A DNA stretch of 44,418 bases from sequence record PX502252.1; one strand, given 5' to 3'. A program made the translations under genes and the position numbers. Numbering within the stretch: position 1 is the stretch's first letter; each line of letters starts with the position of its first letter. Below the pieces are notes generated by a model. The model had not been told where the DNA came from. It made no database searches and saw only the letters and a list, made by a program, of their open reading frames with translations. This DNA comes from a phage. Shown one piece after another: positions 13,564-35,714 of this stretch.

Positions 13564-13696
13564 AGGGATGGAGATGCTTGAGGTGATCCTCAAGCCTTCC
13601 TCTCCGAAAGTGACTAAGACTCATGAAGAGTTAGTCGTAGATGAAGTGAAGCGTTACATTATGGATTGTGTTAGAGCACAACTGGTGGTTCAATGA
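13526..13696 (+). CDS. Small basic protein (56 aa), overlapping neighbours
   Basis: GAGGAA upstream of ATG 13526; stop overlaps next start (ATGA). Confidence 0.4.
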   Translation: MAQTKKKPTISFEGMEMLEVILKPSSPKVTKTHEELVVDEVKRYIMDCVRAQLVVQ

Positions 13697-14154
13697 TACG
13701 TCCAGCTTCCTTCCTAGATATTCCTGAGATTATTAATCTCGGAGACAAGTATGTAGAAGAAGAAGTCAAGGTAGTGGCACATCATTCTGCGTCGTGGAAT
13801 GCGGAACAAAGTGCAGCTAACCTATGTGCCTCTCTAATCAGAGAGGATTTATTCCTGTGGGTTGCTGTAGATGAAGGGCAGATTGTAGGCTTCCTGTGGG
13901 CTGGTTATCATGACCTAGCACCTTGGACGCCAGTGCGTGTTGCGTCTGATATTCTCTTCTATATTGTACCGGAGAAGCGAGGGACGCTACTTGGTATGCG
14001 ACTAATCAAAGCCTACAAGCAATGGGCTTTTGAGAAAGGGTGTGCTGAGGTACGCATGTCAATAGCCTCTGGTATTAATGAGGAACGTGTTGGACGTATG
14101 TATAGGCGACTAGGCTTTGAGACGTTCGGCACTGTATATAACTTAAAACTTTAA
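13693..14154 (+). CDS. GNAT-family N-acetyltransferase
   Basis: Acetyl-CoA binding-like segment EKRGTLLGMRLIKAY and C-terminal YRRLGFE typical of GNAT fold. Confidence 0.7.
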   Translation: MIRPASFLDIPEIINLGDKYVEEEVKVVAHHSASWNAEQSAANLCASLIREDLFLWVAVDEGQIVGFLWAGYHDLAPWTPVRVASDILFYIVPEKRGTLLGMRLIKAYKQWAFEKGCAEVRMSIASGINEERVGRMYRRLGFETFGTVYNLKL

Positions 14155-14163
14155 GGAGATAAC

Positions 14164-14373
14164 ATGGGTGTCGTGAAGAAGGCATTTAAAGCAATTGGTC
14201 TTGCATCTGATACGCCGAAAATTGAGGCAGCGAAAGTGCCAGCACAACAACTAGAACGTCAGCCTGAGACGGAAGCAGAAGATGTGACGCTGGGTCAGGA
14301 CGAGGACACCACAACCACTTCTCGTGGTAAGCGTGGGTTAGTTCGCCCTGTAGCATCAAGCTTAGGAGTATAA
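14164..14373 (+). CDS. Hypothetical protein (69 aa) upstream of portal
   Basis: AAGGAGA SD; position analogous to small T7 virion genes 6.7/7.3. Confidence 0.6.
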   Translation: MGVVKKAFKAIGLASDTPKIEAAKVPAQQLERQPETEAEDVTLGQDEDTTTTSRGKRGLVRPVASSLGV

Positions 14374-14377
14374 TATA

Positions 14378-15925
14378 ATGCAAGACACCGACCTTGAGTA
14401 CGGTGGTAAGCGGTCGAAGATACCTAAGCTTTGGGAGAAGCTATCTACTAAGCGTAACCCTTTCATGGACAGGGCAAAGCACTATGCGAGGTTGACTTTG
14501 CCTTATCTCATGAATGAGGAGGGAGACAACAATACCTCTCAGAATGGGTGGCAAGGTGTAGGTGCTCAGGCTACTAACCACTTAGCTAACAAGTTAGCGC
14601 AAGTTCTCTTCCCGGCTCAACGCTCTTTCTTCCGAGTAGACTTGACAGCAAAAGGGGAGAAGATATTAAACAACAGAGGTCTTAAGAAGACCAAATTAGC
14701 TACACTGTTTGCTCAAGTAGAGACTGCTGCTATGAAGCAATTAGAGCAACGGCAGTTCCGCCCAGCGGTGGTGGAGTGCTTCAAGCATTTGATTGTTGCT
14801 GGCAACTGTATGTTGTACAAGCCAAGCAAGGGTGCAATCAGTGCTATACCTATGCACCACTATGTAGTTAATAGAGATGCCAATGGTGAACTGCTGGATA
14901 TTATCTTACTGCAAGAGAAGGCTCTCAAGACATTCGACCCTGCAACTCGCATGGCTATTGAAGTAGGCATGAAAGGTAAGAAGTGTAAAGATAGTGATAA
15001 TGTAAAACTTTATACACATGCCAAGTATGAAGGTGAAGGTTTTTGGGAACTAAAGCAATCTGCTGATGATATTCCTGTAGGTAAGGTGAGTAAAATCAAA
15101 TCAGAAAAGCTACCTTTCATTCCACTGACTTGGAAGCGAAGCTATGGTGAGGATTGGGGTCGGCCTCTTGCAGAGGATTATTCTGGAGACTTATTCGTAA
15201 TCCAATTCCTATCCGAAGCAGTTGCCCGTGGCGCTGCTTTGATGGCCGACATTAAATACCTGATTCGTCCAGGTGCTCAGACAGATGTAGACCACTTTGT
15301 TAACTCAGGTACAGGTGAAGTAATTACTGGCGTGGAAGAAGACATCCATATTGTACAGTTAGGTAAGTATGCAGATCTAACACCCATAAGTGCTGTACTA
15401 GAGGTTTATACCCGCCGCATAGGTGTAGTCTTCATGATGGAGACAATGACACGTAGGGATGCAGAACGTGTAACTGCTGTAGAGATACAGAGAGATGCTC
15501 TTGAGATTGAGCAGAACATGGGTGGTGTGTATTCCCTCTTTGCAACTACCATGCAGACGCCCGTGGCTATGTGGGGTTTGCTTGATGCAGGTGACTCTTT
15601 CACTAGTGACCTAGTAGACCCTGTTATCATCACAGGCATTGAAGCGTTAGGTCGCATGGCAGAGTTGGATAAGCTGGCTAACTTTGCTCAGTATATGGCA
15701 TTACCTATGAGTTGGCCTGAGCCGGTACAGGCAGCAGTAAACTGGCCGGATTATATGGATTGGGTTCGGGGTCAGATCTCTGCTGAACTTCCATTCTTAA
15801 AGTCAGAAGAGCAGATGAAGCAAGAACAAGCACAGATGGCACAAGCACAGCAAGAGCAGATGCTTAATGAAGGAGTAGCTAAAGCTGTGCCGGGTGTCAT
15901 TCAACAAGAACTTAAGGAGGCGTAA
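14378..15925 (+). CDS. Portal (head-tail connector) protein, T7 gp8-like
   Basis: 515 aa; position before scaffold and capsid; N-terminal region resembles T7 gp8; acidic/Q-rich C-terminus. Confidence 0.88.
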   Translation: MQDTDLEYGGKRSKIPKLWEKLSTKRNPFMDRAKHYARLTLPYLMNEEGDNNTSQNGWQGVGAQATNHLANKLAQVLFPAQRSFFRVDLTAKGEKILNNRGLKKTKLATLFAQVETAAMKQLEQRQFRPAVVECFKHLIVAGNCMLYKPSKGAISAIPMHHYVVNRDANGELLDIILLQEKALKTFDPATRMAIEVGMKGKKCKDSDNVKLYTHAKYEGEGFWELKQSADDIPVGKVSKIKSEKLPFIPLTWKRSYGEDWGRPLAEDYSGDLFVIQFLSEAVARGAALMADIKYLIRPGAQTDVDHFVNSGTGEVITGVEEDIHIVQLGKYADLTPISAVLEVYTRRIGVVFMMETMTRRDAERVTAVEIQRDALEIEQNMGGVYSLFATTMQTPVAMWGLLDAGDSFTSDLVDPVIITGIEALGRMAELDKLANFAQYMALPMSWPEPVQAAVNWPDYMDWVRGQISAELPFLKSEEQMKQEQAQMAQAQQEQMLNEGVAKAVPGVIQQELKEA

Positions 15926-16903: not shown

Positions 16904-18112
16904 ATGTCTACACCGAATACTCTGACTAACGTTGCTGTATCTGCGTCCGGTGAGGTTGACAGCCTTCTCATTGAGAAGTTTAATGGTAAAGTCAATGAGC
17001 AGTACCTGAAAGGTGAGAACATTCTGTCTTACTTTGATGTACAAACTGTTACTGGCACTAACACAGTGAGCAACAAATATTTGGGCGAGACTGAGTTGCA
17101 GGTGCTGGCACCGGGTCAGTCTCCTAATGCCACCCCTACTCAGGCGGATAAAAACCAGTTGGTAATTGATACCACTGTCATTGCTCGTAACACTGTGGCT
17201 CACATCCACGATGTACAAGGTGACATCGACAGCCTGAAACCTAAACTGGCTATGAACCAAGCCAAGCAACTGAAACGTCTGGAAGACCAGATGGCAATTC
17301 AGCAGATGCTGTTAGGCGGCATTGCTAACACCAAAGCAAAACGTGACAAGCCTCGCGTAAAAGGTCATGGCTTCTCTATCAACGTTAACGTAACTGAAAG
17401 TGAAGCACTGGCTAACCCGCAGTATGTCATGGCTGCGGTAGAATATGCTCTGGAGCAACAGCTTGAGCAGGAAGTGGACATCTCTGATGTAGCTATCATG
17501 ATGCCATGGAAGTTCTTCAATGCTCTGCGTGATGCGGATCGTATTGTAGATAAGACTTACACTATTAGCCAATCTGGTGCAACCATTAACGGTTTCGTTC
17601 TGTCTTCTTACAACTGCCCTGTGATCCCATCTAACCGATTCCCTACCTTTACTCAGGGTCAGGCTCACCACCTGTTGTCTAATGAAGATAATGGCTATCG
17701 TTATGACCCCATCGCAGAGATGAATGGTGCAGTTGCTGTGCTGTTTACTGCCGACGCACTGCTTGTAGGTCGGACTATTGAAGTGACTGGTGACATCTTC
17801 TATGAGAAGAAAGAGAAGACTTACTATATCGATACCTTCATGGCTGAAGGTGCAATCCCTGATCGCTGGGAGGCTGTGTCTGTAGTTACCACTAAACGCA
17901 ACGGAACCTCTGGTGCTGCTCAGGGTGCAGGCGACGACCACGACACTGTACTGGCTCGTGCACAGCGTAAGGCTGTATATGTCAAGACCGCAGGCGCTGC
18001 GGCTGCATTCTCTGCTGCACCCGTAGGTATCCAAGCAGAAGACCTAGTAGCGGCGGTACGTGCTGTAATGGTAAATGACATCAAGCCTACTGCACTGAAA
18101 CCTACTGAGTAA
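16904..18112 (+). CDS. Major capsid protein, T7 gp10-like
   Basis: 402 aa; dedicated promoter and terminator; position after scaffold. Confidence 0.92.
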   Translation: MSTPNTLTNVAVSASGEVDSLLIEKFNGKVNEQYLKGENILSYFDVQTVTGTNTVSNKYLGETELQVLAPGQSPNATPTQADKNQLVIDTTVIARNTVAHIHDVQGDIDSLKPKLAMNQAKQLKRLEDQMAIQQMLLGGIANTKAKRDKPRVKGHGFSINVNVTESEALANPQYVMAAVEYALEQQLEQEVDISDVAIMMPWKFFNALRDADRIVDKTYTISQSGATINGFVLSSYNCPVIPSNRFPTFTQGQAHHLLSNEDNGYRYDPIAEMNGAVAVLFTADALLVGRTIEVTGDIFYEKKEKTYYIDTFMAEGAIPDRWEAVSVVTTKRNGTSGAAQGAGDDHDTVLARAQRKAVYVKTAGAAAAFSAAPVGIQAEDLVAAVRAVMVNDIKPTALKPTE

Positions 18113-28000: not shown

Positions 28001-28852
28001 GAGAAAATTGTAGCTCGCTCTATCAATAAGAGACTAAAGCAACATTTGATGGGTGAGCGACAGCTACCCAAAGCAGACCTTGAAGAAGTTGGCCTAAGTG
28101 AAGATGTCATGAAGAGACTTAAACGTCACTTTGATGATAACCCAATGTACGCTGATTACAACGGTGAAAAAGTTCGTATGATGAACTTTGATGCTATGGA
28201 GCCAGATCTGAGAGAAACAGTAGGTGTTGCTGTGCGAAGAATGTCAGGCCGTCTTATTCAACGTAACTTCATTGGTGATGAAGGTATCTGGATGAACAAA
28301 TGGTGGGGTAAAGCATTAACTCAGTTTAAGTCATTCTCTATCGTCTCTATTGAGAAACAGTTAATCCATGATTTACGAGGTGATAAGATTCAGGCTGCAC
28401 AGATACTTGCATGGTCTACTTTACTAGGTTATGCATCTTATTCACTACAGATGCAGCTGCAAGCGATTGGTAGGGAAGATAGAGACAAGTTCTTGAGGGA
28501 TAAGTTTGACACACAGAACATCGCTATGGGTGTCTTTAATAAACTCCCACAAGTTGCAGGCTTCGGTCTTGCTGGTGATGCTTTGGCAACCTTTGGCCTA
28601 ATGCCAGACTCCATGATGCAAGCACCGGGACGTATGGGCTTCCGTCAGCAAGGATTTGGTGATTTGGTAGCAGGTGCTGGTGTAATCAGTGATACAGTTA
28701 ATTTGTCACAAGCACTGGTTAAGTATGCCAGTGGGGATGATGATGTCTCTACTAGGCAGTTGGTGGACAAGGTGCGTCGCCTTGTTCCTTTGGCAAATAC
28801 TATTGGTGTAGGTCAGATGACTAAAGCCAGTGTAGACTTATTGGAGGATTGA
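25049..28852 (+). CDS. Internal virion (core/ejection) protein, T7 gp16-like
   Basis: 1267 aa; size and position. Confidence 0.85.
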   Translation: MVDSINQNWVAVTQRKLPPTFSQVAEAERRVEDQRAKDKVFQTAIESEWALYGGQRAYERHTTEFTEQEGYEVPESTKDELSKLYGYEIAQDIVKNVKSPEELQFRMSNAAADKDRADILARNGFTGFSAQIAAGILDPVGWAASLVAAPVAGAVKVGRLGRIIKTAALSGAENAALEAVLAQGDYQRGVDDVLAAAGFGMIMGGTIGAATRERIASAGSRTAAERAEVVFDDLDTVVKGADEFDSSAARAVREAMEYDAYMAARNYEPLRAREVDADMAILSHTDNLKANASVRMSASEKGLLKKQIRQLEAEAATLKGKKIDAVAEAAAAKGAPKSAADRLDLDVQKKALARRFDEPLADLQARLDELNAKLSRANNVGKAKEELKRFSSLSREDQIKELGLDAPMRKVEMTRAVRDAVAAIRAERKKTPTEIHAGQVAEEAIKQKADDSIGAKRVEGSEIAGEQFDLSKNMEELMDDLAREAYQSDVRPINLKGLGSVSSVILNSENPVFRGLGLRLLENAQGGAYQGKTASILSDVYGNLIRHAERNRYNDGFSQFIKDNNLRAVDYLNPATTRDFNNQIYTAIVRGIPEDTPRGVKLAAEGIADKLKKALEIRKQAGEHGFEDVQSAKDYIPVIYDGIKITEAVNKLGSSEAVIHLLSKGYQTGKYKLGKKAADALAKVQYIRASDSTLSSRVAFDRVVSQQQQVQLIEDLKKAGVPDRIIDNFIEGTELAEMAESVSNRAKASMGINTQAEYGGLKVQDLLNTNVGELTENYGKEAAGGAALAAMGFPTRQSVLNAIDAAERAGRNMAGSNAKAIKQLRSEAEMLRDAVKLIYGNTIDADPNSGIVRGTRRVREITGLLRLGQMGFAQIPELARAISKMGLGTVLKSVPATKFLRSRAARKGGTAQGELLEPELREMEELLGYIGEDNWLTGWNVRHDEFGETADNLGKLSAIIDNGLAMGSRINTILSGFKAVQGGSEKIVARSINKRLKQHLMGERQLPKADLEEVGLSEDVMKRLKRHFDDNPMYADYNGEKVRMMNFDAMEPDLRETVGVAVRRMSGRLIQRNFIGDEGIWMNKWWGKALTQFKSFSIVSIEKQLIHDLRGDKIQAAQILAWSTLLGYASYSLQMQLQAIGREDRDKFLRDKFDTQNIAMGVFNKLPQVAGFGLAGDALATFGLMPDSMMQAPGRMGFRQQGFGDLVAGAGVISDTVNLSQALVKYASGDDDVSTRQLVDKVRRLVPLANTIGVGQMTKASVDLLED

Positions 28853-29811
28853 TGAGTTACACATTCACTGAACATACAGCGAATGGCACTCAAACTACTT
28901 TCCCCTTCCGGTTCGCTGGGAGGGACAAGGGGTACTTGAGGGCTTCTGATATTTTAGTTGAAGTAAGAAATGATGGTGTATGGAACACGGTAAGCGGTTG
29001 GACACTTACAGGCACTAACCAGATAACCTTTAATGTACCACCAGCGGCAAATACAAAACTTCGCATCAGGCGCGTTGTAGAGAAAGAAGAGCCTTATGCA
29101 GAGTTTGACCGTGGTGTGACCTTAGATATGAAATCTCTCAATAACTCCTTTATACACCTTTTGGAAGTATCTCAGGAGCTACTGGATGGTTTCTATCCAG
29201 ATGGTTACTTTGTAAAGCAAGATACATCTTGGGGTGGACATAAGATTACTGATTTGGCTGATGGCACAAATCCGGGAGATGCAGTAAATAAAGGACAGCT
29301 TGATGCCATCGACAAGAAGCATACAGATTGGAACGCCAAACAGGACATTGAGATTGCTGGCCTTAAAGCAGGTATGACTTCTGGTATTGCGCACAGAACT
29401 GTCCCTTGGTATACGATCGCACAAGGAGGTGAGATTTCCGTAAAGCCTCCTTATGAATTTCAAGATGCACTAGTTTTCCTTAATGGGGTATTACAACACC
29501 AAATCGTAGGCGCATACTCTATAAGCAACAACACTATTACTTTCGCAGAGCCACTTGTGGCTGGCACAGAGGTGTACGTGTTGGTGGGGAGTCGTGTGGC
29601 TACATCTGAACCTAATATTCAGTTAGAGCTGAACTTTGACTTAGTAGAAGGTCAACAAGTAGTAAAGATTGGCTCTGCATTTAAGTATATTGAGGTTTAT
29701 CTTGATGGACTATTACAACCTAAACTTGCTTATCAGGTAGATGGTGACATTGTTACTTTCTCAGAGGGAGTACCAGAATGTCGGATGACTGCTAAGATTA
29801 TCACAGCATAA
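28852..29811 (+). CDS. Tail fibre adaptor protein (T7 gp17 N-terminal domain-like)
   Basis: N-terminus FTEHTANGTQTTFPFRF...TKLRIRR resembles tail-attachment domain of T7 gp17; 320 aa. Confidence 0.7.
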   Translation: MSYTFTEHTANGTQTTFPFRFAGRDKGYLRASDILVEVRNDGVWNTVSGWTLTGTNQITFNVPPAANTKLRIRRVVEKEEPYAEFDRGVTLDMKSLNNSFIHLLEVSQELLDGFYPDGYFVKQDTSWGGHKITDLADGTNPGDAVNKGQLDAIDKKHTDWNAKQDIEIAGLKAGMTSGIAHRTVPWYTIAQGGEISVKPPYEFQDALVFLNGVLQHQIVGAYSISNNTITFAEPLVAGTEVYVLVGSRVATSEPNIQLELNFDLVEGQQVVKIGSAFKYIEVYLDGLLQPKLAYQVDGDIVTFSEGVPECRMTAKIITA

Positions 29812-30015: not shown

Positions 30016-30298
30016 ACATGCAGCCACAGAGGATGAAGTAGGCATCCTGCATGGCGCTATTACGAAGATGTTTAATAAGAAAGCAAAGGCTATACTGGAC
30101 ACTATAGAAGCAGACCCTGATTCTGCTATGCACCTAGTGTCAGGTAAAGATATTGGAGCCATGTGTAAATGGGTTTTAGATAATGGCATTACTGCCACCC
30201 CTGCTGCACAGCAGGAGGAGTCCAAGTTATCTAAGCGCCTCAAGGCTATCCGAGAGGCGTCCAGTGGCAAGATCATTCAGTTCACTAAGGAGGATTGA
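29999..30298 (+). CDS. Terminase small subunit (start uncertain)
   Basis: Immediately upstream of large terminase with stop/start overlap; GTG 29999 has GGAGGA 6 nt upstream; ORF track extends to 29954. Confidence 0.55.
   Translation: MSVHNKHAATEDEVGILHGAITKMFNKKAKAILDTIEADPDSAMHLVSGKDIGAMCKWVLDNGITATPAAQQEESKLSKRLKAIREASSGKIIQFTKED
30091..30113 (+). promoter_or_regulatory. SP6-type phage promoter embedded in small terminase gene (TATACTGGACACTATAGAAGCAG)
   Basis: Core ACTGGACACTATAGAAG exact; in-frame encodes ILDTIEA. Confidence 0.55.
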
Positions 30299-32193
30299 TG
30301 GCTAAGGCAAGAGAATCACAAGCGGAGGCTCTTGCCAGATGGGAGATGCTACACGAGTTACAGCAGACCTTCCCTTATACCGCAGAAGGTTTGCTTCTCT
30401 TTGCTGATACAGTTATTCATAATTTAATTGCAGGTAGCCCTCATCTGATTCGTATGCAGGCAGACATCTTGAAATTCCTATTCTATGGACACAAGTATCG
30501 CCTCATCGAAGCGCCCCGTGGTATCGCTAAAACTACGCTGGCAGCAATCTATACGGTATTCCGTATCATTCATGAACCTCATAAGCGTATCATGGTTGTA
30601 TCACAAAACGCCAAGCGAGCAGAGGAAATCGCAGGTTGGGTTGTCAAAATCTTCCGAGGATTGGACTTCCTAGAGTTTATGCTGCCAGACATTTACGCTG
30701 GCGACCGTGCATCAGTTAAGGCATTCGAGATTCACTATACACTGCGTGGAAGCGACAAGTCTCCTTCTGTATCCTGCTACTCTATTGAAGCAGGTATGCA
30801 GGGTGCTCGTGCAGACATCATTCTAGCAGATGACGTTGAATCTATGCAGAATGCGCGTACCGCAGCAGGTCGTGCATTGCTTGAGGAATTAACCAAGGAG
30901 TTTGAATCTATCAACCAGTTTGGTGATATTATCTACCTTGGTACACCACAGAATGTGAACTCTATTTACAACAACCTTCCTGCACGCGGTTATTCTGTTC
31001 GTATCTGGACTGCTCGTTACCCTTCGGTAGAGCAAGAGCAATGTTATGGTGACTTCCTTGCACCTATGATCGTGCAGGATATGAAGGACAACCCAGCATT
31101 GCGAACAGGTTATGGTTTGGATGGCAACAGTGGCGCTCCTTGTGCACCTGAAATGTATGATGATGATGTCTTGATTGAGAAGGAAATCTCACAAGGTGCT
31201 GCTAAGTTCCAACTTCAGTTCATGCTTAACACTCGCATGATGGATGCTGACAGATACCCATTACGCCTGAACACTCTAATCTTCACCTCGTTTGGTACAG
31301 AGGAAGTCCCTGTGATGCCTACGTGGAGCAATGATTCCATAAACATCATTGGTGATGCACCTAAGTATGGTAACAAGCCTACAGATTTCATGTACAGACC
31401 TGTGGCACGTCCATACGAATGGGGTGCTGTTACACGCAAGATTATGTATATCGACCCAGCTGGTGGCGGTAAGAACGGGGATGAGACTGGCGTAGCCATC
31501 GTATTCCTGCACGGCACATTCATTTATGTATATCAGTGCTTTGGTGTGCCGGGCGGATACCGAGAATCGTCCCTGAATCGCATTGTGCAGGCCGCAAAGC
31601 AGGCGGGTGTTAAAGAGGTATTCATTGAGAAAAACTTTGGTCATGGTGCGTTTGAGGCTGTTATAAAGCCATACTTTGAAAGGGAGTGGCCTGTGACTAT
31701 CGAAGAAGACTACGCCACTGGTCAAAAAGAACTCCGTATCATCGAGACATTAGAGCCGCTGATGACCGCGCATAGACTTATCTTCAATGCTGAGATGGTC
31801 AAGTCGGATTTCGCTTCAGTACAGAATTACCCTCTGGAATTGCGGATGTCTTATAGTTTGTTCCACCAAATGTCGAACATCACTATTGAGAAGAACAGCC
31901 TCCGGCATGATGACCGCTTAGACGCTCTGTATGGCGCTGTGCGTCAATTAACTTCTCAGATAGACTATGACGAGGTTACTCGTATTAATCGCCTCAGAGC
32001 GCAGGAGATGCGCGATTATATACAGGCGATGAACACACCTAAACTTCGTCGGGCTATGCTGTACGGAGACTATGGTGATGAGCGAAGAACAACCAACACA
32101 TCCTTGGCAATGCAGCAGAGAGTTTACGGGCAGAATTGGAGGAACCGCTCAGGCTCTAGAAATACACTTTCCTCAAGGATTTCAAGGATTTAG
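30298..32193 (+). CDS. Terminase large subunit, T7 gp19-like
   Basis: Walker A-like PRGIAKTT, Walker B ADIILADDVE; 632 aa. Confidence 0.92.
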   Translation: MAKARESQAEALARWEMLHELQQTFPYTAEGLLLFADTVIHNLIAGSPHLIRMQADILKFLFYGHKYRLIEAPRGIAKTTLAAIYTVFRIIHEPHKRIMVVSQNAKRAEEIAGWVVKIFRGLDFLEFMLPDIYAGDRASVKAFEIHYTLRGSDKSPSVSCYSIEAGMQGARADIILADDVESMQNARTAAGRALLEELTKEFESINQFGDIIYLGTPQNVNSIYNNLPARGYSVRIWTARYPSVEQEQCYGDFLAPMIVQDMKDNPALRTGYGLDGNSGAPCAPEMYDDDVLIEKEISQGAAKFQLQFMLNTRMMDADRYPLRLNTLIFTSFGTEEVPVMPTWSNDSINIIGDAPKYGNKPTDFMYRPVARPYEWGAVTRKIMYIDPAGGGKNGDETGVAIVFLHGTFIYVYQCFGVPGGYRESSLNRIVQAAKQAGVKEVFIEKNFGHGAFEAVIKPYFEREWPVTIEEDYATGQKELRIIETLEPLMTAHRLIFNAEMVKSDFASVQNYPLELRMSYSLFHQMSNITIEKNSLRHDDRLDALYGAVRQLTSQIDYDEVTRINRLRAQEMRDYIQAMNTPKLRRAMLYGDYGDERRTTNTSLAMQQRVYGQNWRNRSGSRNTLSSRISRI

Positions 32194-32194
32194 T

Positions 32195-32217
32195 ATTTAC
32201 TGGACACTATAGGAGGA
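32195..32217 (+). promoter_or_regulatory. SP6-type phage promoter (ATTTACTGGACACTATAGGAGGA)
   Basis: Consensus match directly after terminase stop. Confidence 0.75.
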
Positions 32218-32345
32218 AGACCAAGAGAATAAAGGAGTATTATAGGATAATATAGGATTACCTAGGTTATATAGGTATGCCTTAGTATGGGTGTACTCCT
32301 GTACACCTATTCCTACTTACTATTTACTTATACATATAAGGAGTG
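32218..32345. other. AT-rich promoter-proximal element sharing TATAGGATTACCTAGG with region 139-280; candidate secondary origin
   Basis: 16-bp identical core and similar AT-rich TAGG-containing flanks. Confidence 0.4.
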
Positions 32346-32349
32346 TTAG

Positions 32350-32631
32350 ATGGCTAATGATTATAGTAATCAGCCTTTAACTGGTCGTTATGACCGTAAA
32401 CAGATTACACCAACTAGTGAAGCATTAATGCTCCCTGTTGTTACAGAGGAGTCTATTAAGAAGAAAGCCAATGTTATCAATGATGCAACCAAATCTGGTA
32501 AACAGAAAGCAGCAATGGTATGTCGTCCTGTAGGTGGCACTCTTGAGATTGCCATTGCTACTGGTAGCAAAGAGGATGCAGACTGGTTGTCTGTTAAAAT
32601 GGATGGCGTTGGCCTTATTACACCAGCTTAA
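32350..32631 (+). CDS. Paralog-family small protein 1 (93 aa)
   Basis: AAGGAG SD; shares IN...SGKQKAAMV...IAIATGS...W core with next two ORFs. Confidence 0.7.
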   Translation: MANDYSNQPLTGRYDRKQITPTSEALMLPVVTEESIKKKANVINDATKSGKQKAAMVCRPVGGTLEIAIATGSKEDADWLSVKMDGVGLITPA

Positions 32632-32648
32632 TAAAAGGAGAAGATAAT

Positions 32649-32936
32649 ATGTCTAAGTATGGCGATGCAGGTACTACTACTGGTCAGGCTTTTCGTGTAA
32701 AAGCAGTACAAACTATTGCAACTGCAATCCCTATGCCTATCGTGGCAGAAGCTGACCTTAAAAAGAAAGATCATCCAATTAATATTGAACACCTATCTGG
32801 TAAGCAGAAAGGTGCTATGGTGGTTGTAGATAAGGGAGATAATAGCCTTTATATTGCTATTGCACGTGGTTCTGCACCAACTGACCAGTGGGATGTAACT
32901 ACTATGGAAGCTGTACCTGTAACACCAGGAGCTTAA
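32649..32936 (+). CDS. Paralog-family small protein 2 (95 aa)
   Basis: AAGGAGAAG SD; INIEHLSGKQKGAMVVV...IAIARGSAPTDQW. Confidence 0.7.
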   Translation: MSKYGDAGTTTGQAFRVKAVQTIATAIPMPIVAEADLKKKDHPINIEHLSGKQKGAMVVVDKGDNSLYIAIARGSAPTDQWDVTTMEAVPVTPGA

Positions 32937-32937
32937 T

Positions 32938-33627
32938 ATGCTGGGAGTAACAGGACAACGCAATAAGAATGTAGCCACCAAAGTAGTGGCTGATTTAGCT
33001 ACTGCTGCTACTGTCGAGGAATTACGAGATCAACATAGCTCTATTAACCGTGCTGACCTTTCTGGTAAACAAGAAGGTTCCGCTGTTATTGTTAAGAAAG
33101 AAGATGGGAATTATTCTATCTTTGTAGCAACAGGAAGCAAGCCGACTGATGTGTGGAAAGAGTTGTCTCCAACAATACCAGAGCAAGAGATGCCTGCTGA
33201 ATATATTGATATGATTGATGTTCAAATTCATCAAGATTCTGCAAGCAACTTACGCATAGACTCTTCTCGCACTAGTTTAATACAAACACCAATGTGGGAT
33301 ACTGAAGGTGAGTTGTTATTCCGTAATACACTAAGTGCAACATGTTCTTGTACTATTCTTGTTGATGGTGCGTCTGGTGTTCGTCAGGATTTTACTTTTA
33401 AGATTAATGGACTTTTAGAGCAGGAAGAGCAGTATTATGATATTGACACACTTATGTGCTCTATTCACTCTGCAACAGCAACTAATGGCCTTACCTTGTG
33501 TATGCCAGATGCTAAAAGTGCAAAGACTAATAAAATGGTAGTTAAGATCGACACTATGCAGTCATTAGCTATGAGCTTTGATCTTAACTTCCTTGTAGAA
33601 TGGACGTCACCAACGAGGTTACTATAA
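32938..33627 (+). CDS. Paralog-family protein 3 (229 aa), conserved N-terminal domain plus C-terminal extension
   Basis: INRADLSGKQEGSAVIV...IFVATGSKPTDVW then about 140 aa unique region. Confidence 0.7.
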   Translation: MLGVTGQRNKNVATKVVADLATAATVEELRDQHSSINRADLSGKQEGSAVIVKKEDGNYSIFVATGSKPTDVWKELSPTIPEQEMPAEYIDMIDVQIHQDSASNLRIDSSRTSLIQTPMWDTEGELLFRNTLSATCSCTILVDGASGVRQDFTFKINGLLEQEEQYYDIDTLMCSIHSATATNGLTLCMPDAKSAKTNKMVVKIDTMQSLAMSFDLNFLVEWTSPTRLL

Positions 33628-33971
33628 TGCTAAATCAATACTTCAAGCGTAAAGAGTTTGCTTGCCGTTGTGGGTGCGGCACATCTACTGTTGATGCTGA
33701 GTTACTACAGGTAATCACAGATGTGCGTGAGCACTTTGGTTCTCCTGTAGTTATCACTTCTGGGCATCGCTGTGCTAAGCACAATGCTAATGTAGGGGGA
33801 GCTAAAAACTCCATGCATCTTACTGGTAAGGCTGCTGACATTAAGGTACGAGGCATCTTACCATCTGAAGTGCATAAGTATCTTACTGATAAGTACCAAG
33901 GCAAATATGGGATTGGTAAGTACAACTCCTTCACCCATATTGATGTACGGGATGGGTGTGCACGATGGTAG
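33627..33971 (+). CDS. Endolysin, zinc peptidase M15 family (L-alanyl-D-glutamate / D-Ala-D-Ala peptidase type)
   Basis: SGHRCAKHNANVGGAKNSMHLTGKAADI and FTHIDVR motifs (His/Asp zinc ligands of M15); start ATG 33627 with GAGG upstream (alternative 33600). Confidence 0.8.
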   Translation: MLNQYFKRKEFACRCGCGTSTVDAELLQVITDVREHFGSPVVITSGHRCAKHNANVGGAKNSMHLTGKAADIKVRGILPSEVHKYLTDKYQGKYGIGKYNSFTHIDVRDGCARW

Positions 33972-34516: not shown

Positions 34517-34545
34517 TACATAGCTTTATGTATCAGTGTCTTACG

Positions 34546-34568
34546 ATTTACTGGACACTATAGAAGAG
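34546..34568 (+). promoter_or_regulatory. SP6-type phage promoter (ATTTACTGGACACTATAGAAGAG) upstream of receptor-binding protein genes
   Basis: Full consensus match; ORF track's 34536 start runs through it, so true CDS start is downstream. Confidence 0.8.
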
Positions 34569-34646
34569 ATAAATAGTGCCGTTCATTTGAGCGGCCTATT
34601 ACTAGCCAATCTTCATAGGGAGGGTTGGAAAGTAATAGGAGACAAT

Positions 34647-35714
34647 ATGGCTAAACTTACTAAAGTCTTCCAAGGCAGGGATGGTAAAGGTCAAGAGGAC
34701 TTTTATACCGGAGGTGGATGGAGCGGAGCCGATGGTGAGTCCGGTAGTATTTATAAAACTGTAGGCTCTCCACAAGAGAGTGCATCTAGGTGGAGATTTT
34801 CATTAAAAGAAAATGAACTAGTAGAAGAGCCTACCATCTGGTTAAATAAACGAACCAAAGTGTCTAGAAGTGATGGCATTAAAAGGTGGGATGCTGGCAA
34901 TTTATATTGCGGCCTAGATAAGATAGAAGGAGATGCATATGCTGCATCTTTAACTGGTGCAGCAAGACACCTAGGTGGGGAAGGGGATGTGATAGGTGTG
35001 CACGGAAGAGGTTGTGCCTATCATGGAAAAGCAAAAGTATGGGGTGGGTGGTTTTACGCTGCATCCAGAGTAGATAGCGAAGTTGTTGCAGGAGAAGCAC
35101 CTATTGATATGATAGGTGTTGAAATAAACTTAAACCATAAAAGAGAGGACATCTCTTGGACACCAGCAGAGGGTAAAGGCTTATACCGAGGCCTTGTAGT
35201 CACTACGGCAGATGGTGGAAAAAGATGCCATATAGGTATAGATGTTGGAGCACAAACCAGTAATAAATCAGAACCTTGGTATGTAGGGCTACGCATAAGA
35301 AAGGACAGCATAGTTCCTTTCAATGATGAAAGAGAAGGTAATGCGGCATCTGCAATATTAATAGAAGGCTCTACTCTACAATCCAAGGCGTATGGTGGTT
35401 TATCATTTAAGAATGGAACCCTAGCATATGGTATAGATTTTACAGGTATAGCTTTGATTGACAACCAAGCTGCATTGGTAATGAAAGATGACCATAGGAT
35501 CCGTTGGGGTTCAAGGGTGTCATCTAGATACATCTCAGGCAACAGTGTAACTGGTCAAGTAAATTTCAATAACTATGCAATTGCAGTAAATGGCAATAAA
35601 GTTATTGGAGAGCAACAACAAGCCATAAGTAATGCATCACAAGGTACAGAGGTTGATACTATAAATAATATCTTAGAAGCCCTAAGATCTCACGGACTAA
35701 TTAAGAGAGGTTAA
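34647..35714 (+). CDS. Putative tail fibre / receptor-binding protein 1 (355 aa), function unassigned
   Basis: TAGGAGA SD before ATG 34647; Gly-rich; located in the tailspike module; no confident domain call. Confidence 0.55.
   Translation: MAKLTKVFQGRDGKGQEDFYTGGGWSGADGESGSIYKTVGSPQESASRWRFSLKENELVEEPTIWLNKRTKVSRSDGIKRWDAGNLYCGLDKIEGDAYAASLTGAARHLGGEGDVIGVHGRGCAYHGKAKVWGGWFYAASRVDSEVVAGEAPIDMIGVEINLNHKREDISWTPAEGKGLYRGLVVTTADGGKRCHIGIDVGAQTSNKSEPWYVGLRIRKDSIVPFNDEREGNAASAILIEGSTLQSKAYGGLSFKNGTLAYGIDFTGIALIDNQAALVMKDDHRIRWGSRVSSRYISGNSVTGQVNFNNYAIAVNGNKVIGEQQQAISNASQGTEVDTINNILEALRSHGLIKRG

What the first reader, a model, noticed from the sequence alone, without database searches (positions are those of the whole stretch)
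32350..33627. Tandem triplet of paralogous genes between terminase and endolysin
Three consecutive ORFs (93, 95 and 229 aa) share an approximately 60-aa core (IN..LSGKQ.GA.V.V...G...IaiAtGS.ptD.W), each with its own strong SD; the third carries a unique 140-aa C-terminal extension. I do not recognise this family. Tandem paralog expansion in a compact podophage genome is unusual and suggests diversification under selection (for example virion decoration, receptor-binding accessory or anti-defence roles).
Basis: seen in the sequence. Interest (0 to 1): 0.75.

Follow-up and report, generated by a model that had tools for sequence, protein, structure and literature searches.

The report
Three paralogous minor virion protein genes
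Three neighbouring genes of this SP6/K1E-like coliphage are real, ancient copies of one small domain; their homologues were found in purified particles of a related Klebsiella phage, and in other phages the three copies are fused into one protein, so they most likely form a three-part accessory unit on the phage particle rather than a recent gene expansion.

Summary
The ORFs 32350-32631 (93 aa), 32649-32936 (95 aa) and 32938-33627 (229 aa) are significant paralogues (BLASTP E 4e-12, 8e-12, 2e-6). Each has a Shine-Dalgarno site, and the group follows a canonical phage-RNAP promoter.

The window is a Vectrevirus genome, and the genes are the K1-5/K1E gp41/gp42 family. Databases label this family 'acetyl-CoA acetyltransferase'; nothing supports that label.

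The triplet is not a recent expansion:
- Ten of 13 surveyed SP6-like genomes carry three copies at the same place, right after the large terminase gene.
- Gene 1 and gene 2 are orthologous across genera.
- dN/dS is 0.12 or less.
- In other T7-like phages the same position holds one gene with three fused copies of the domain, never more than three, sometimes followed by a C-terminal domain.

In Klebsiella phage Kp7 the syntenic homologues gp45, gp46 and gp47 were detected by mass spectrometry in purified virions and called minor capsid proteins. Kp7 gp47 carries an Ig-like domain where ORF3 carries a beta-sandwich.

Best reading: a virion-surface accessory unit of three anchor domains, the third carrying an exchangeable display domain. 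The binding site and stoichiometry are unknown, and the domain has no Pfam family or solved structure. I rate it a new member of a known kind, of moderate interest.

The parts
32195..32215 (+). Phage (SP6-type) RNA polymerase promoter ATTTACTGGACACTATAGGAG, directly upstream of the three genes
   Evidence: The core GACACTATAGGAG is at 32203. There are 15 matches with up to 2 mismatches in the window, 14 of them on the + strand, against 1.3 expected by chance. The aligned instances share ATTTACTG-GACACTATAGAAG.
32287..32310 (+). 10-bp hairpin (AUGGGUGUAC-UCCU-GUACACCUAU) between the promoter and ORF1. The equivalent site is annotated as a terminator in phage R4596. Its function is not established; it could be a partial terminator or an RNA-processing or stabilising hairpin.
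   Evidence: It is present in the RNA fold of 32216-32349, but the whole leader does not fold better than shuffles (z = -0.99). ARNOLD terminator annotation in MK373771.
32350..32631 (+). Gene 1 (93 aa, 9.9 kDa): a single copy of the anchor domain. Orthologue of K1-5/K1E gp41 and Kp7 gp45.
   Evidence: phrog_2725 E 1.9e-37. The best hit is gene 1 in all 10 other split-gene genomes. dN/dS 0.05-0.11.
32649..32936 (+). Gene 2 (95 aa, 10.0 kDa): a single copy of the anchor domain. Orthologue of K1-5/K1E gp42 and Kp7 gp46. This is the most conserved of the three.
   Evidence: phrog_2725 E 7.4e-45. 103 close homologue clusters. The best hit is gene 2 in 8 of 10 genomes. dN/dS 0-0.09.
32938..33627 (+). 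Gene 3 (229 aa, 25.2 kDa): anchor domain (about aa 1-80, 32938-33177) plus an acidic C-terminal beta-sandwich (about aa 90-229). Counterpart of Kp7 gp47, which has an Ig-like domain instead.
   Evidence: phrog_32357 E 6.5e-122. AF2 model pLDDT 75 with 8 strands at aa 94-224. The N-domain is nearly invariant while the C-domain diverges among homologues. The stop codon overlaps the endolysin start codon (TAATG at 33625-33629).
33627..33971 (+). Context: Peptidase_M15_3 endolysin. Its start codon overlaps the stop codon of gene 3, so the genes lie in one late transcription unit. This gene is not part of the paralogue set.
   Evidence: PF08291 E 5.7e-33. The start position is taken from the R4596 and CrRp3 annotation.

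Best explanation
The three genes encode accessory (minor) proteins of the phage particle. Each begins with the same anchor domain of about 80-90 aa. That domain has a conserved N-terminal arm, predicted to be unstructured in isolation, followed by a small beta-sheet core. I infer that the domain works in sets of three, meaning a trimer-like unit attached to the virion surface, most likely the capsid. Genes 1 and 2 would supply bare anchor domains. Gene 3 would supply an anchor domain plus an outward-facing, exchangeable beta-sandwich that could bind a surface or a glycan. Expression is late, from a dedicated phage-RNAP promoter and with strong ribosome-binding sites, in one unit with the lysis genes.

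Shown directly:
- paralogy of the three genes;
- purifying selection on them;
- conserved position right after the terminase gene;
- the three-copy fusion proteins;
- the modular C-terminal domains;
- detection of the Kp7 homologues in virions (from a paper).

Inferred:
- that the proteins of this phage are also in the virion;
- that the three copies form one unit;
- that the site is on the capsid;
- that the C-domain binds something.
For: 1. Homology and synteny with Kp7. After its large terminase gene, Kp7 has gp45 (88 aa), gp46 (88 aa) and gp47 (178 aa), followed by the endolysin. These align with ORF1-3 and share the invariant motifs. They score E 4e-23 to 1e-21 with the family HMM.

2. 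Virion detection. The Kp7 preprint (doi 10.1101/2024.05.19.594906) reports gp32, gp45, gp46 and gp47 among gel bands of purified virions identified by mass spectrometry, and names them minor capsid proteins. The window's major capsid protein is closely related to that of Kp7 (E 4.5e-182 to PDB 7y3t, which is 100% identical to Kp7 gp35).

3. Fusion evidence.
- An HMM search of 1.84 billion representative proteins found 211 hits.
- Of the 150 listed hits plus the fused, window and Kp7 proteins, 41 have three tandem copies in one chain; three to four of these also have a C-terminal domain of about 120 aa.
- Five apparent two-copy proteins carry a degenerate third copy.
- None has more than three copies.
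- Three fused genes whose context could be read all lie directly after a T7-type large terminase gene.
- The best inter-protein hit falls at the same repeat position in 113 of 123 cases.

4. Anchor-plus-display architecture. The N-domain of ORF3 homologues is nearly invariant while the C-domain drops to roughly 40% identity. Elsewhere the C-domain is replaced by an Ig-like domain (Kp7 gp47; it matches the Ig domain of the T5 decoration protein pb10, 5lxk, at E 2.8e-16). It can also be absent (Pectobacterium PP1) or replaced by other extensions.

5. Conserved arm. Residues 1-23 have pLDDT below 50, yet they hold invariant T11, G12, R16 and K18. A conserved arm that is disordered alone suggests it becomes ordered on a partner. 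From my own knowledge, the N-terminus of lambda gpD behaves this way on the capsid.

6. Expression signals. Canonical promoter and SD sequences.
Against: - No virion proteomics or structure exists for this phage or any Vectrevirus in what I could search.
- PDB 7y3t (the Kp7 capsid) matched only through its major capsid protein sequence. No chain in the PDB copy matches Kp7 gp32, gp45 or gp46, or the N-domain of gp47. So these proteins may not be icosahedrally ordered, may be sub-stoichiometric, or may sit elsewhere, such as at a vertex or the neck.
- K1E, K1-5 and Proteus PM93 have only two genes, so a strict 1:1:1 unit is not universal.
- The window's three domains do not map one-to-one onto the three positions of the fused proteins.
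- A weak alanine-zipper hit in one long form (E 0.0076, below the Pfam cut-off) hints at homotrimers rather than heterotrimers.
- AF2 confidence for the short protein is low (pLDDT 60).
- No structural analogue was found.
Confidence: 0.6

Rival explanations
1. The proteins are in the virion, but on the neck, portal vertex or tail as small whiskers or fibres, not on the capsid shell. The anchor domain would trimerise and dock on the adaptor or collar, and the C-domain of gene 3 would act as an accessory adhesin.
For: - The pattern of a conserved N-terminus with a variable C-terminus is typical of fibres.
- The weak best fold matches of the C-domain are a pyocin fibre foot and a tailspike (probability 0.8-0.92, E at or above 0.01).
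- A homologue in Marinomonas phage CPP1m is annotated 'tail fiber protein'.
- The Ig domain of Kp7 gp47 also matches a neck-whisker protein (9occ, E 1.8e-11) and tail proteins.
- PDB 7y3t matched only through its major capsid protein sequence.
Against: - The Kp7 authors, who solved that capsid, call these proteins minor capsid proteins and list the tail proteins separately.
- There is no T7-tail-fibre N-terminal domain or any other tail family hit.
- The fold matches are not significant.
Confidence: 0.2
2. The proteins are non-structural late proteins, for example an assembly chaperone, a lysis regulator or an anti-defence factor. They would appear in virion preparations only as contaminants.
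For: - The genes share a transcription unit with the endolysin, and gene 3 overlaps it.
- Small abundant proteins can contaminate phage preparations.
- There is no direct localisation data.
Against: - Three separate homologues were recovered from gel bands of purified Kp7.
- Ig-like and beta-sandwich display domains are typical of surface proteins.
- There are no transmembrane segments.
- There are no defence-related hits.
- In metagenomic relatives the fused gene keeps its position after the terminase gene; whether its downstream neighbours are lysis genes was not determined.
Confidence: 0.12
3. They are acetyl-CoA acetyltransferases (thiolases), as annotated in RefSeq and PHROGs.
For: Only the propagated label on phrog_2725 and many GenBank records, which seems to go back to the K1E annotation.
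Against: The proteins are 93-95 aa, whereas thiolases are about 390 aa (my own knowledge). There is no match to any Pfam or NCBIfam family, thiolase domains included.
Confidence: 0.01

Closest known systems
Klebsiella phage Kp7 gp45, gp46 and gp47 ('minor capsid proteins'; gp47 'with Ig-domain'), GenBank ON148527 and bioRxiv 10.1101/2024.05.19.594906
   Same: Same domain family, same number of genes, same order (short, short, long), and same position between the large terminase and the endolysin. The major capsid protein is closely related.
   Different: The proteins share about 34-51% identity. The third protein carries an Ig-like domain in Kp7 but an unrelated beta-sandwich of about 140 aa here. 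The window's ORF3 N-domain does not hit gp47 as its best Kp7 match.
K1-5 / K1E gp41 and gp42 (PHROG 2725, mislabelled 'acetyl-CoA acetyltransferase')
   Same: Direct orthologues of genes 1 and 2: 61-68% and 75-83% identity respectively.
   Different: K1-5 and K1E lack the third, long gene. No function has been published for them in what I could search.
Three-copy fusion proteins of uncultured T7-like phages (for example P0126, P0272, P0273, P0274)
   Same: The same domain occurs three times, encoded directly after the T7-type large terminase gene. A few carry a C-terminal extra domain after the third copy, as the window's gene set does.
   Different: They are one polypeptide instead of three genes. 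The window's genes do not map one-to-one onto the fused positions.
T5 pb10 and T4 Hoc (capsid anchor domain plus Ig-like display domain)
   Same: The logic is the same: a small capsid-binding N-domain plus an exposed, non-essential adhesion-type domain. The Ig domain of Kp7 gp47 is homologous to that of pb10.
   Different: The anchor domains show no sequence match. From my own knowledge, pb10 and Hoc bind as monomers at hexamer centres. Here there are three paralogous anchors.
Lambda gpD, T4 Soc and phage L Dec (trimeric cementing or decoration proteins)
   Same: They are small (about 9-15 kDa) and act in threes. From my own knowledge, gpD has an N-terminal arm that becomes ordered only on the capsid.
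   Different: There is no sequence or fold match. Those are homotrimers from one gene. Binding at three-fold sites has not been shown here.
[quoted passage not shown]
   Same: An Autographiviridae phage with paralogous decoration proteins, one bare and one carrying an extra protruding domain.
   Different: Those are alpha-helical homodimers at two-fold sites and are unrelated in sequence. The family here is beta-rich and comes in threes.

Membership tests
K1-5 gp41/gp42 family (PHROG 2725 / 32357) | Significant profile match over the whole domain | tested here: met
   phrog_2725 at E 1.9e-37 (ORF1), 7.4e-45 (ORF2) and 1.2e-18 (ORF3). phrog_32357 at E 6.5e-122 (ORF3).
K1-5 gp41/gp42 family (PHROG 2725 / 32357) | Position directly downstream of the large terminase gene, upstream of the M15 endolysin | tested here: met
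Kp7-type minor capsid proteins (gp45-47) | Homology to Kp7 gp45, gp46 and gp47 | tested here: met
   Alignment A5 with shared invariant motifs. Window ORF1 against Kp7 gp45: 42% identity, 57 bits. ORF2 against gp46: 51% identity, 64 bits.
Kp7-type minor capsid proteins (gp45-47) | Physical presence in purified virions | not testable with these tools
   Reported for Kp7 only. I found no proteome for this phage or for other Vectrevirus phages.
Kp7-type minor capsid proteins (gp45-47) | Defined binding site on the capsid lattice | not testable with these tools
   PDB 7y3t matched only through its major capsid protein sequence, and no chain in the PDB copy matches the family.
Acetyl-CoA acetyltransferase (thiolase) | Thiolase N- and C-terminal domains in a protein of about 390 aa with catalytic Cys and His | tested here: not met
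   The proteins are 93-95 aa, with no Pfam or NCBIfam hit at E up to 0.1.
Known decoration-protein families (lambda gpD, T4 Soc, T4 Hoc, T5 pb10, L Dec) | Sequence or fold similarity of the capsid-binding part | tested here: not met
   No Pfam hit. No PDB sequence hit, single sequence or profile. No significant Foldseek hit. The ORF2 model has low confidence, so the fold test is weak.
Known decoration-protein families (lambda gpD, T4 Soc, T4 Hoc, T5 pb10, L Dec) | Ig-like display domain (Hoc / pb10 type) | tested here: not met
   The window's ORF3 C-domain has no Ig hit. Kp7 gp47 does have one.
T7-type tail fibre / tailspike | N-terminal Phage_T7_tail (PF03906) adaptor-binding domain or a tail PHROG | tested here: not met
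   Neither was found in ORF1-3. Both are present in the window's adaptor gene at 28849-29811.
Trimer-forming unit (functional claim, not a named family) | Three copies per unit | tested here: inconclusive
   Fused proteins always hold three copies, and 10 of 13 split genomes hold three genes. Three genomes have only two genes, and no multimer prediction or experiment was possible.

The most novel reading that the evidence does not exclude
The domain is a previously undescribed capsid-anchoring fold that assembles as a pseudo-three-fold unit built from three ancient paralogues, or from one three-domain chain. Because only one of the three carries a display domain, each site would expose exactly one exchangeable ligand-binding module. 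This would be a heterotrimeric decoration protein, unlike the homotrimeric gpD, Soc and Dec types. Its symmetry mismatch would also explain why it is missing from the icosahedral Kp7 capsid model.
Probability: 0.3. Interest if true: 0.6.

Novelty: new member of a known kind. Interest (0 to 1): 0.4.

Why it matters
If the reading is right, a widely distributed, mis-annotated gene set of SP6/K1E-like therapeutic phages is a virion-surface module.

- About 100 phage records in the collection searched match the family, and many of them carry the label 'acetyl-CoA acetyltransferase'.
- Its third subunit carries a swappable domain. That matters for phage engineering as a natural display site, for particle stability, and possibly for adherence to mucus or capsule.
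- The fission/fusion series (three genes versus one three-domain gene) gives a clean and testable prediction of a three-part assembly.
- The domain has no Pfam family and no solved structure, so a structure would define a new decoration or anchor fold.
- Correcting the thiolase label would also remove a spurious 'metabolic gene' from safety assessments of therapeutic phages.

Tried and rejected
- **Sequence families.** Pfam, NCBIfam and PADLOC scans of the three proteins and of the fused and long relatives gave nothing, apart from Ig domains in Kp7 gp47.
- **PDB by sequence.** The ORF3 sequence, the family profile, and Kp7 gp45, gp47 and gp32 gave no hit to the anchor domain.
- **Context of fused proteins in IMG/VR.** Three scans with single fused proteins found nothing, and the alignment was too divergent to search with. 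This was solved through the search for homologous proteins plus look-up of encoding contigs.
- **One-to-one mapping of ORF1/2/3 onto fused positions 1/2/3.** Inconclusive, because all single-domain proteins resemble positions 2 or 3 best.
- **Literature.** I found no function for K1-5, K1E or SP6 gp41/gp42, no Vectrevirus virion proteome, and no paper for PDB 7y3t. The PhiXacm4-11 and PhiM1 decoration proteins are unrelated folds.
- **Recent diversifying selection.** Rejected, since dN/dS is 0.12 or less.
- **Leader hairpin as a clearly significant structure.** The whole-leader fold is not better than shuffles (z = -0.99).

Full report
**1. What is there**

The window is a complete or near-complete, permuted genome of an SP6/K1E-like podophage (Autographiviridae, Molineuxvirinae, Vectrevirus). 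The region 32200-33700 is 98.3% identical to Escherichia phage vB_EcoP-101117UKE2 and 92-97% identical to EEc4, R4596 and Citrobacter phage CrRp3.

Three ORFs lie on the + strand downstream of the large terminase gene (30295-32193):
- 32350-32631 (93 aa);
- 32649-32936 (95 aa);
- 32938-33627 (229 aa).

A Peptidase_M15_3 endolysin follows. Its start codon overlaps the stop codon of the third ORF (TAATG). All three ORFs have Shine-Dalgarno sequences 6-8 nt upstream.

A canonical phage-polymerase promoter, ATTTACTGGACACTATAGGAG, sits at 32195-32215. It is one of about 13 such sites on the + strand, against 1.3 expected by chance. A 10-bp hairpin follows at 32287-32310. The equivalent site is annotated as a terminator in R4596.

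**2.

- BLASTP gives E 4e-12 (ORF1/ORF2), 8e-12 (ORF2/ORF3) and 2e-6 (ORF1/ORF3), at 37-41% identity.
- The shared domain spans about 70-80 residues and has invariant T-G, N, S-G-K-Q, A, G-S and W positions.
- Nei-Gojobori dN/dS against R4596 and CrRp3 is 0.05-0.11 for ORF1, 0-0.09 for ORF2 and 0.09-0.12 for ORF3. The terminase gives 0.01 and the endolysin 0.16-0.18.

These are therefore expressed, constrained genes, with no sign of recent diversifying selection.

**3. Which family**

- ORF1 and ORF2 hit phrog_2725 (E 1.9e-37 and 7.4e-45).
- ORF3 hits phrog_32357 (E 6.5e-122) and, through its N-domain, also phrog_2725.

They are the orthologues of K1-5/K1E genes 41 and 42.

PHROGs and RefSeq attach the label 'acetyl-CoA acetyltransferase' to this family. 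The label seems to go back to the K1E annotation, and nothing supports it. The proteins are a quarter of the size of a thiolase and match no Pfam or NCBIfam model. No Pfam, NCBIfam or PADLOC family covers the domain. No PDB chain matches it by sequence or by profile.

**4. The triplet is old and conserved, not a local expansion**

I built an HMM of the domain and scanned the ORFs between the terminase and endolysin genes in 13 split-gene genomes.

| Copies | Genomes |
|---|---|
| Three genes | this phage, R4596, CrRp3, Raoultella P3a, NTNC80A, Klebsiella K44PH129C1, Klebsiella Kp7, Salmonella Kenya-K32 (Zindervirus), Pectobacterium PP1 (Axomammavirus; all three short), Vibrio phiVP140 (one short, two long) |
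| Two genes | K1E, K1-5, Proteus PM93 |

- Gene 1 finds gene 1 as its best hit in other genomes in 96 of 110 comparisons.
- Gene 2 finds gene 2 in 89 of 110 comparisons.
- The window's ORF3 finds gene 3 in NTNC80A, P3a, K44PH129C1 and Kenya-K32.

The paralogues therefore predate the divergence of these genera.

**5. Fusion evidence**

A profile search of 1.84 billion representative proteins gave 211 hits at E up to 1e-3. A census of the 150 listed hits plus the fused, window and Kp7 proteins gave the following:

| Architecture | Count |
|---|---|
| One domain only | 95 |
| One domain plus a C-terminal extension of 50-345 aa | 16 |
| Three tandem domains in one chain | 41 (three to four also carry a C-terminal domain of about 120 aa) |
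| Apparently two domains | 7 |

In five of the seven apparent two-domain proteins, the 'extension' is a degenerate third copy. No protein has more than three copies.

Within the three-domain proteins, the best hit in another protein falls at the same repeat position in 113 of 123 cases. The triplication is therefore ancient, and each position is distinct.

The three fused genes whose genomic context could be recovered (P0273, P0272, P0274) all lie immediately after a T7-type large terminase gene. One of them is on a 44.8-kb contig that also encodes a T7-type RNA polymerase. So the same genomic slot holds either three genes or one three-domain gene. Such a gene fission/fusion relationship argues that the three products work together as a unit.

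The window's set (domain, domain, domain plus C-domain) mirrors fused proteins such as P0204 and P0221 (three domains plus C-domain). One caveat applies: the window's genes do not map one-to-one onto the fused positions, because all single-domain proteins resemble positions 2 or 3 best.

**6. Evidence for a virion role**

Klebsiella phage Kp7 (Molineuxvirinae) has the same arrangement: terminase, gp45 (88 aa), gp46 (88 aa), gp47 (178 aa), endolysin. In GenBank these are annotated as 'minor capsid protein' for gp45 and gp46, and 'minor capsid protein with Ig-domain' for gp47. They align with ORF1-3.

The accompanying preprint states that gel bands of purified Kp7 virions were identified by mass spectrometry. 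Among them were 'minor capsid proteins (gp32, gp45, gp46, and gp47)'. It also states that phages Kp9 and Kp11 lack these proteins.

The window's major capsid protein is closely related to that of Kp7. It matches PDB 7y3t at E 4.5e-182, and 7y3t is 100% identical to Kp7 gp35. The window also encodes a homologue of Kp7 gp32 at 14164-14373.

**7. Anchor plus display**

Among ORF3 homologues the first 75 or so residues are almost invariant, while the C-terminal 140 or so residues fall to roughly 40% identity. tblastn finds full-length but only 27-34% identical third genes in many Molineuxvirinae phages.

The C-terminal domain varies between phages:
- In Kp7 it is an Ig-like (I-set) domain homologous to the Ig domain of the T5 decoration protein pb10. 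It matches 5lxk at E 2.8e-16 and 8zvi at E 6e-17, and also matches neck-whisker and tail Ig domains.
- In PP1 the third gene has no extension.
- Other relatives carry unrelated extensions of up to 345 aa.

AlphaFold2 predicts a small beta-sheet N-domain for ORF3 (pLDDT 83-89) and an eight-stranded beta-sandwich at residues 94-224 (mean pLDDT 75). Foldseek finds no significant solved analogue. BFVD returns only uncharacterised family members from Klebsiella, Proteus, Vibrio, Pseudomonas, Erwinia, Aeromonas and Marinomonas phages.

The N-terminal 20 or so residues of the domain are conserved but are predicted to be disordered. I read this as an arm that becomes ordered on a partner.

**8. Most likely mechanism**

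The proteins are made late and at high level. They attach to the particle surface through the shared anchor domain, acting in threes. The third subunit exposes one exchangeable domain, which may serve adhesion or stabilisation.

My confidence is about 0.6 that this is a virion accessory module. It is lower, about 0.3, for the specific heterotrimer-on-capsid model.

The main counter-evidence is as follows:
- PDB 7y3t matched only through its major capsid protein sequence, and no chain in the PDB copy matches the family.
- Two-gene phages exist.
- There is no proteome for this genus.
- One long form shows a weak hint of homotrimeric coiled coils.

The rival explanations are a neck or tail whisker location (0.2), a non-structural late protein (0.12) and a thiolase (about 0.01).

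**9. Novelty**

The genes are new members of an already sequenced family, for which one preprint reports a structural role.

I did not find the following points in the literature I could search:
- the domain-level picture: three ancient paralogues, three-copy fusions at the same locus, and a modular display domain;
- the fact that the thiolase label is spurious;
- any solved structure or Pfam family for the anchor domain.

I rate the interest at 0.4.

Noticed in passing
window 14164-14373 (+): A 69-aa ORF between the acetyltransferase-like gene (13693-14154) and the portal gene (14378-15925). It is a clear homologue of Kp7 gp32, the fourth 'minor capsid protein' found by mass spectrometry in Kp7 virions. 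The C-terminus LVRPVASSLGV is identical.
   Followed up: partly
window 16904-18112 (+): The major capsid protein ORF is 402 aa, but it aligns to the 363-aa Kp7 capsid protein (PDB 7y3t) only over residues 1-362. So it carries a C-terminal extension of about 40 aa of unknown meaning, which I speculate could be a surface-exposed tail like that of T7 10B.
   Followed up: no
window 32195-32310 (+): A canonical phage promoter is followed, about 70 nt later and before the first gene, by a 10-bp GC-rich hairpin that relatives annotate as a terminator. A promoter placed before a terminator is an odd order. The hairpin may instead be a processing or stabilising element, or a leaky terminator for upstream transcripts.
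   Followed up: partly
protein P0103 (metagenomic, 95 aa), alignment A3: Its N-terminal half resembles gene 1 (MSNSYSTQPLTGKSARKQIQPVSEA...) and its C-terminal half resembles gene 2. This suggests recombination between the tandem paralogues.
   Followed up: no
window 34536-35714 (+): A 392-aa ORF downstream of the lysis genes, in the position where relatives encode a tailspike, has no PHROG or Pfam hit. A phage promoter core at 34554 lies inside its predicted 5' end, so the true start codon is probably further downstream.
   Followed up: no
L006 12141-12410 and 17498-17902 (metagenomic T7-like contig ERZ27260067 k141_13829): The relative that carries the fused three-domain gene also encodes a Tad2-like protein (PF11195, an anti-Thoeris family) and an S-adenosylmethionine lyase.
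   Followed up: no
L015 2153-4254 (Vibrio phage phiVP140): Here the three-gene set is one short gene plus two long genes (238 and 373 aa by ORF scan; 235 and 366 aa as annotated), so two subunits carry C-terminal extensions. The longest has a weak alanine-zipper (trimeric coiled-coil) hit, E 0.0076, below the Pfam cut-off.
   Followed up: partly
RefSeq / PHROG annotation of phrog_2725: The label 'acetyl-CoA acetyltransferase' has spread to dozens of phage records for these proteins of about 90 aa, with no supporting domain.
   Followed up: yes
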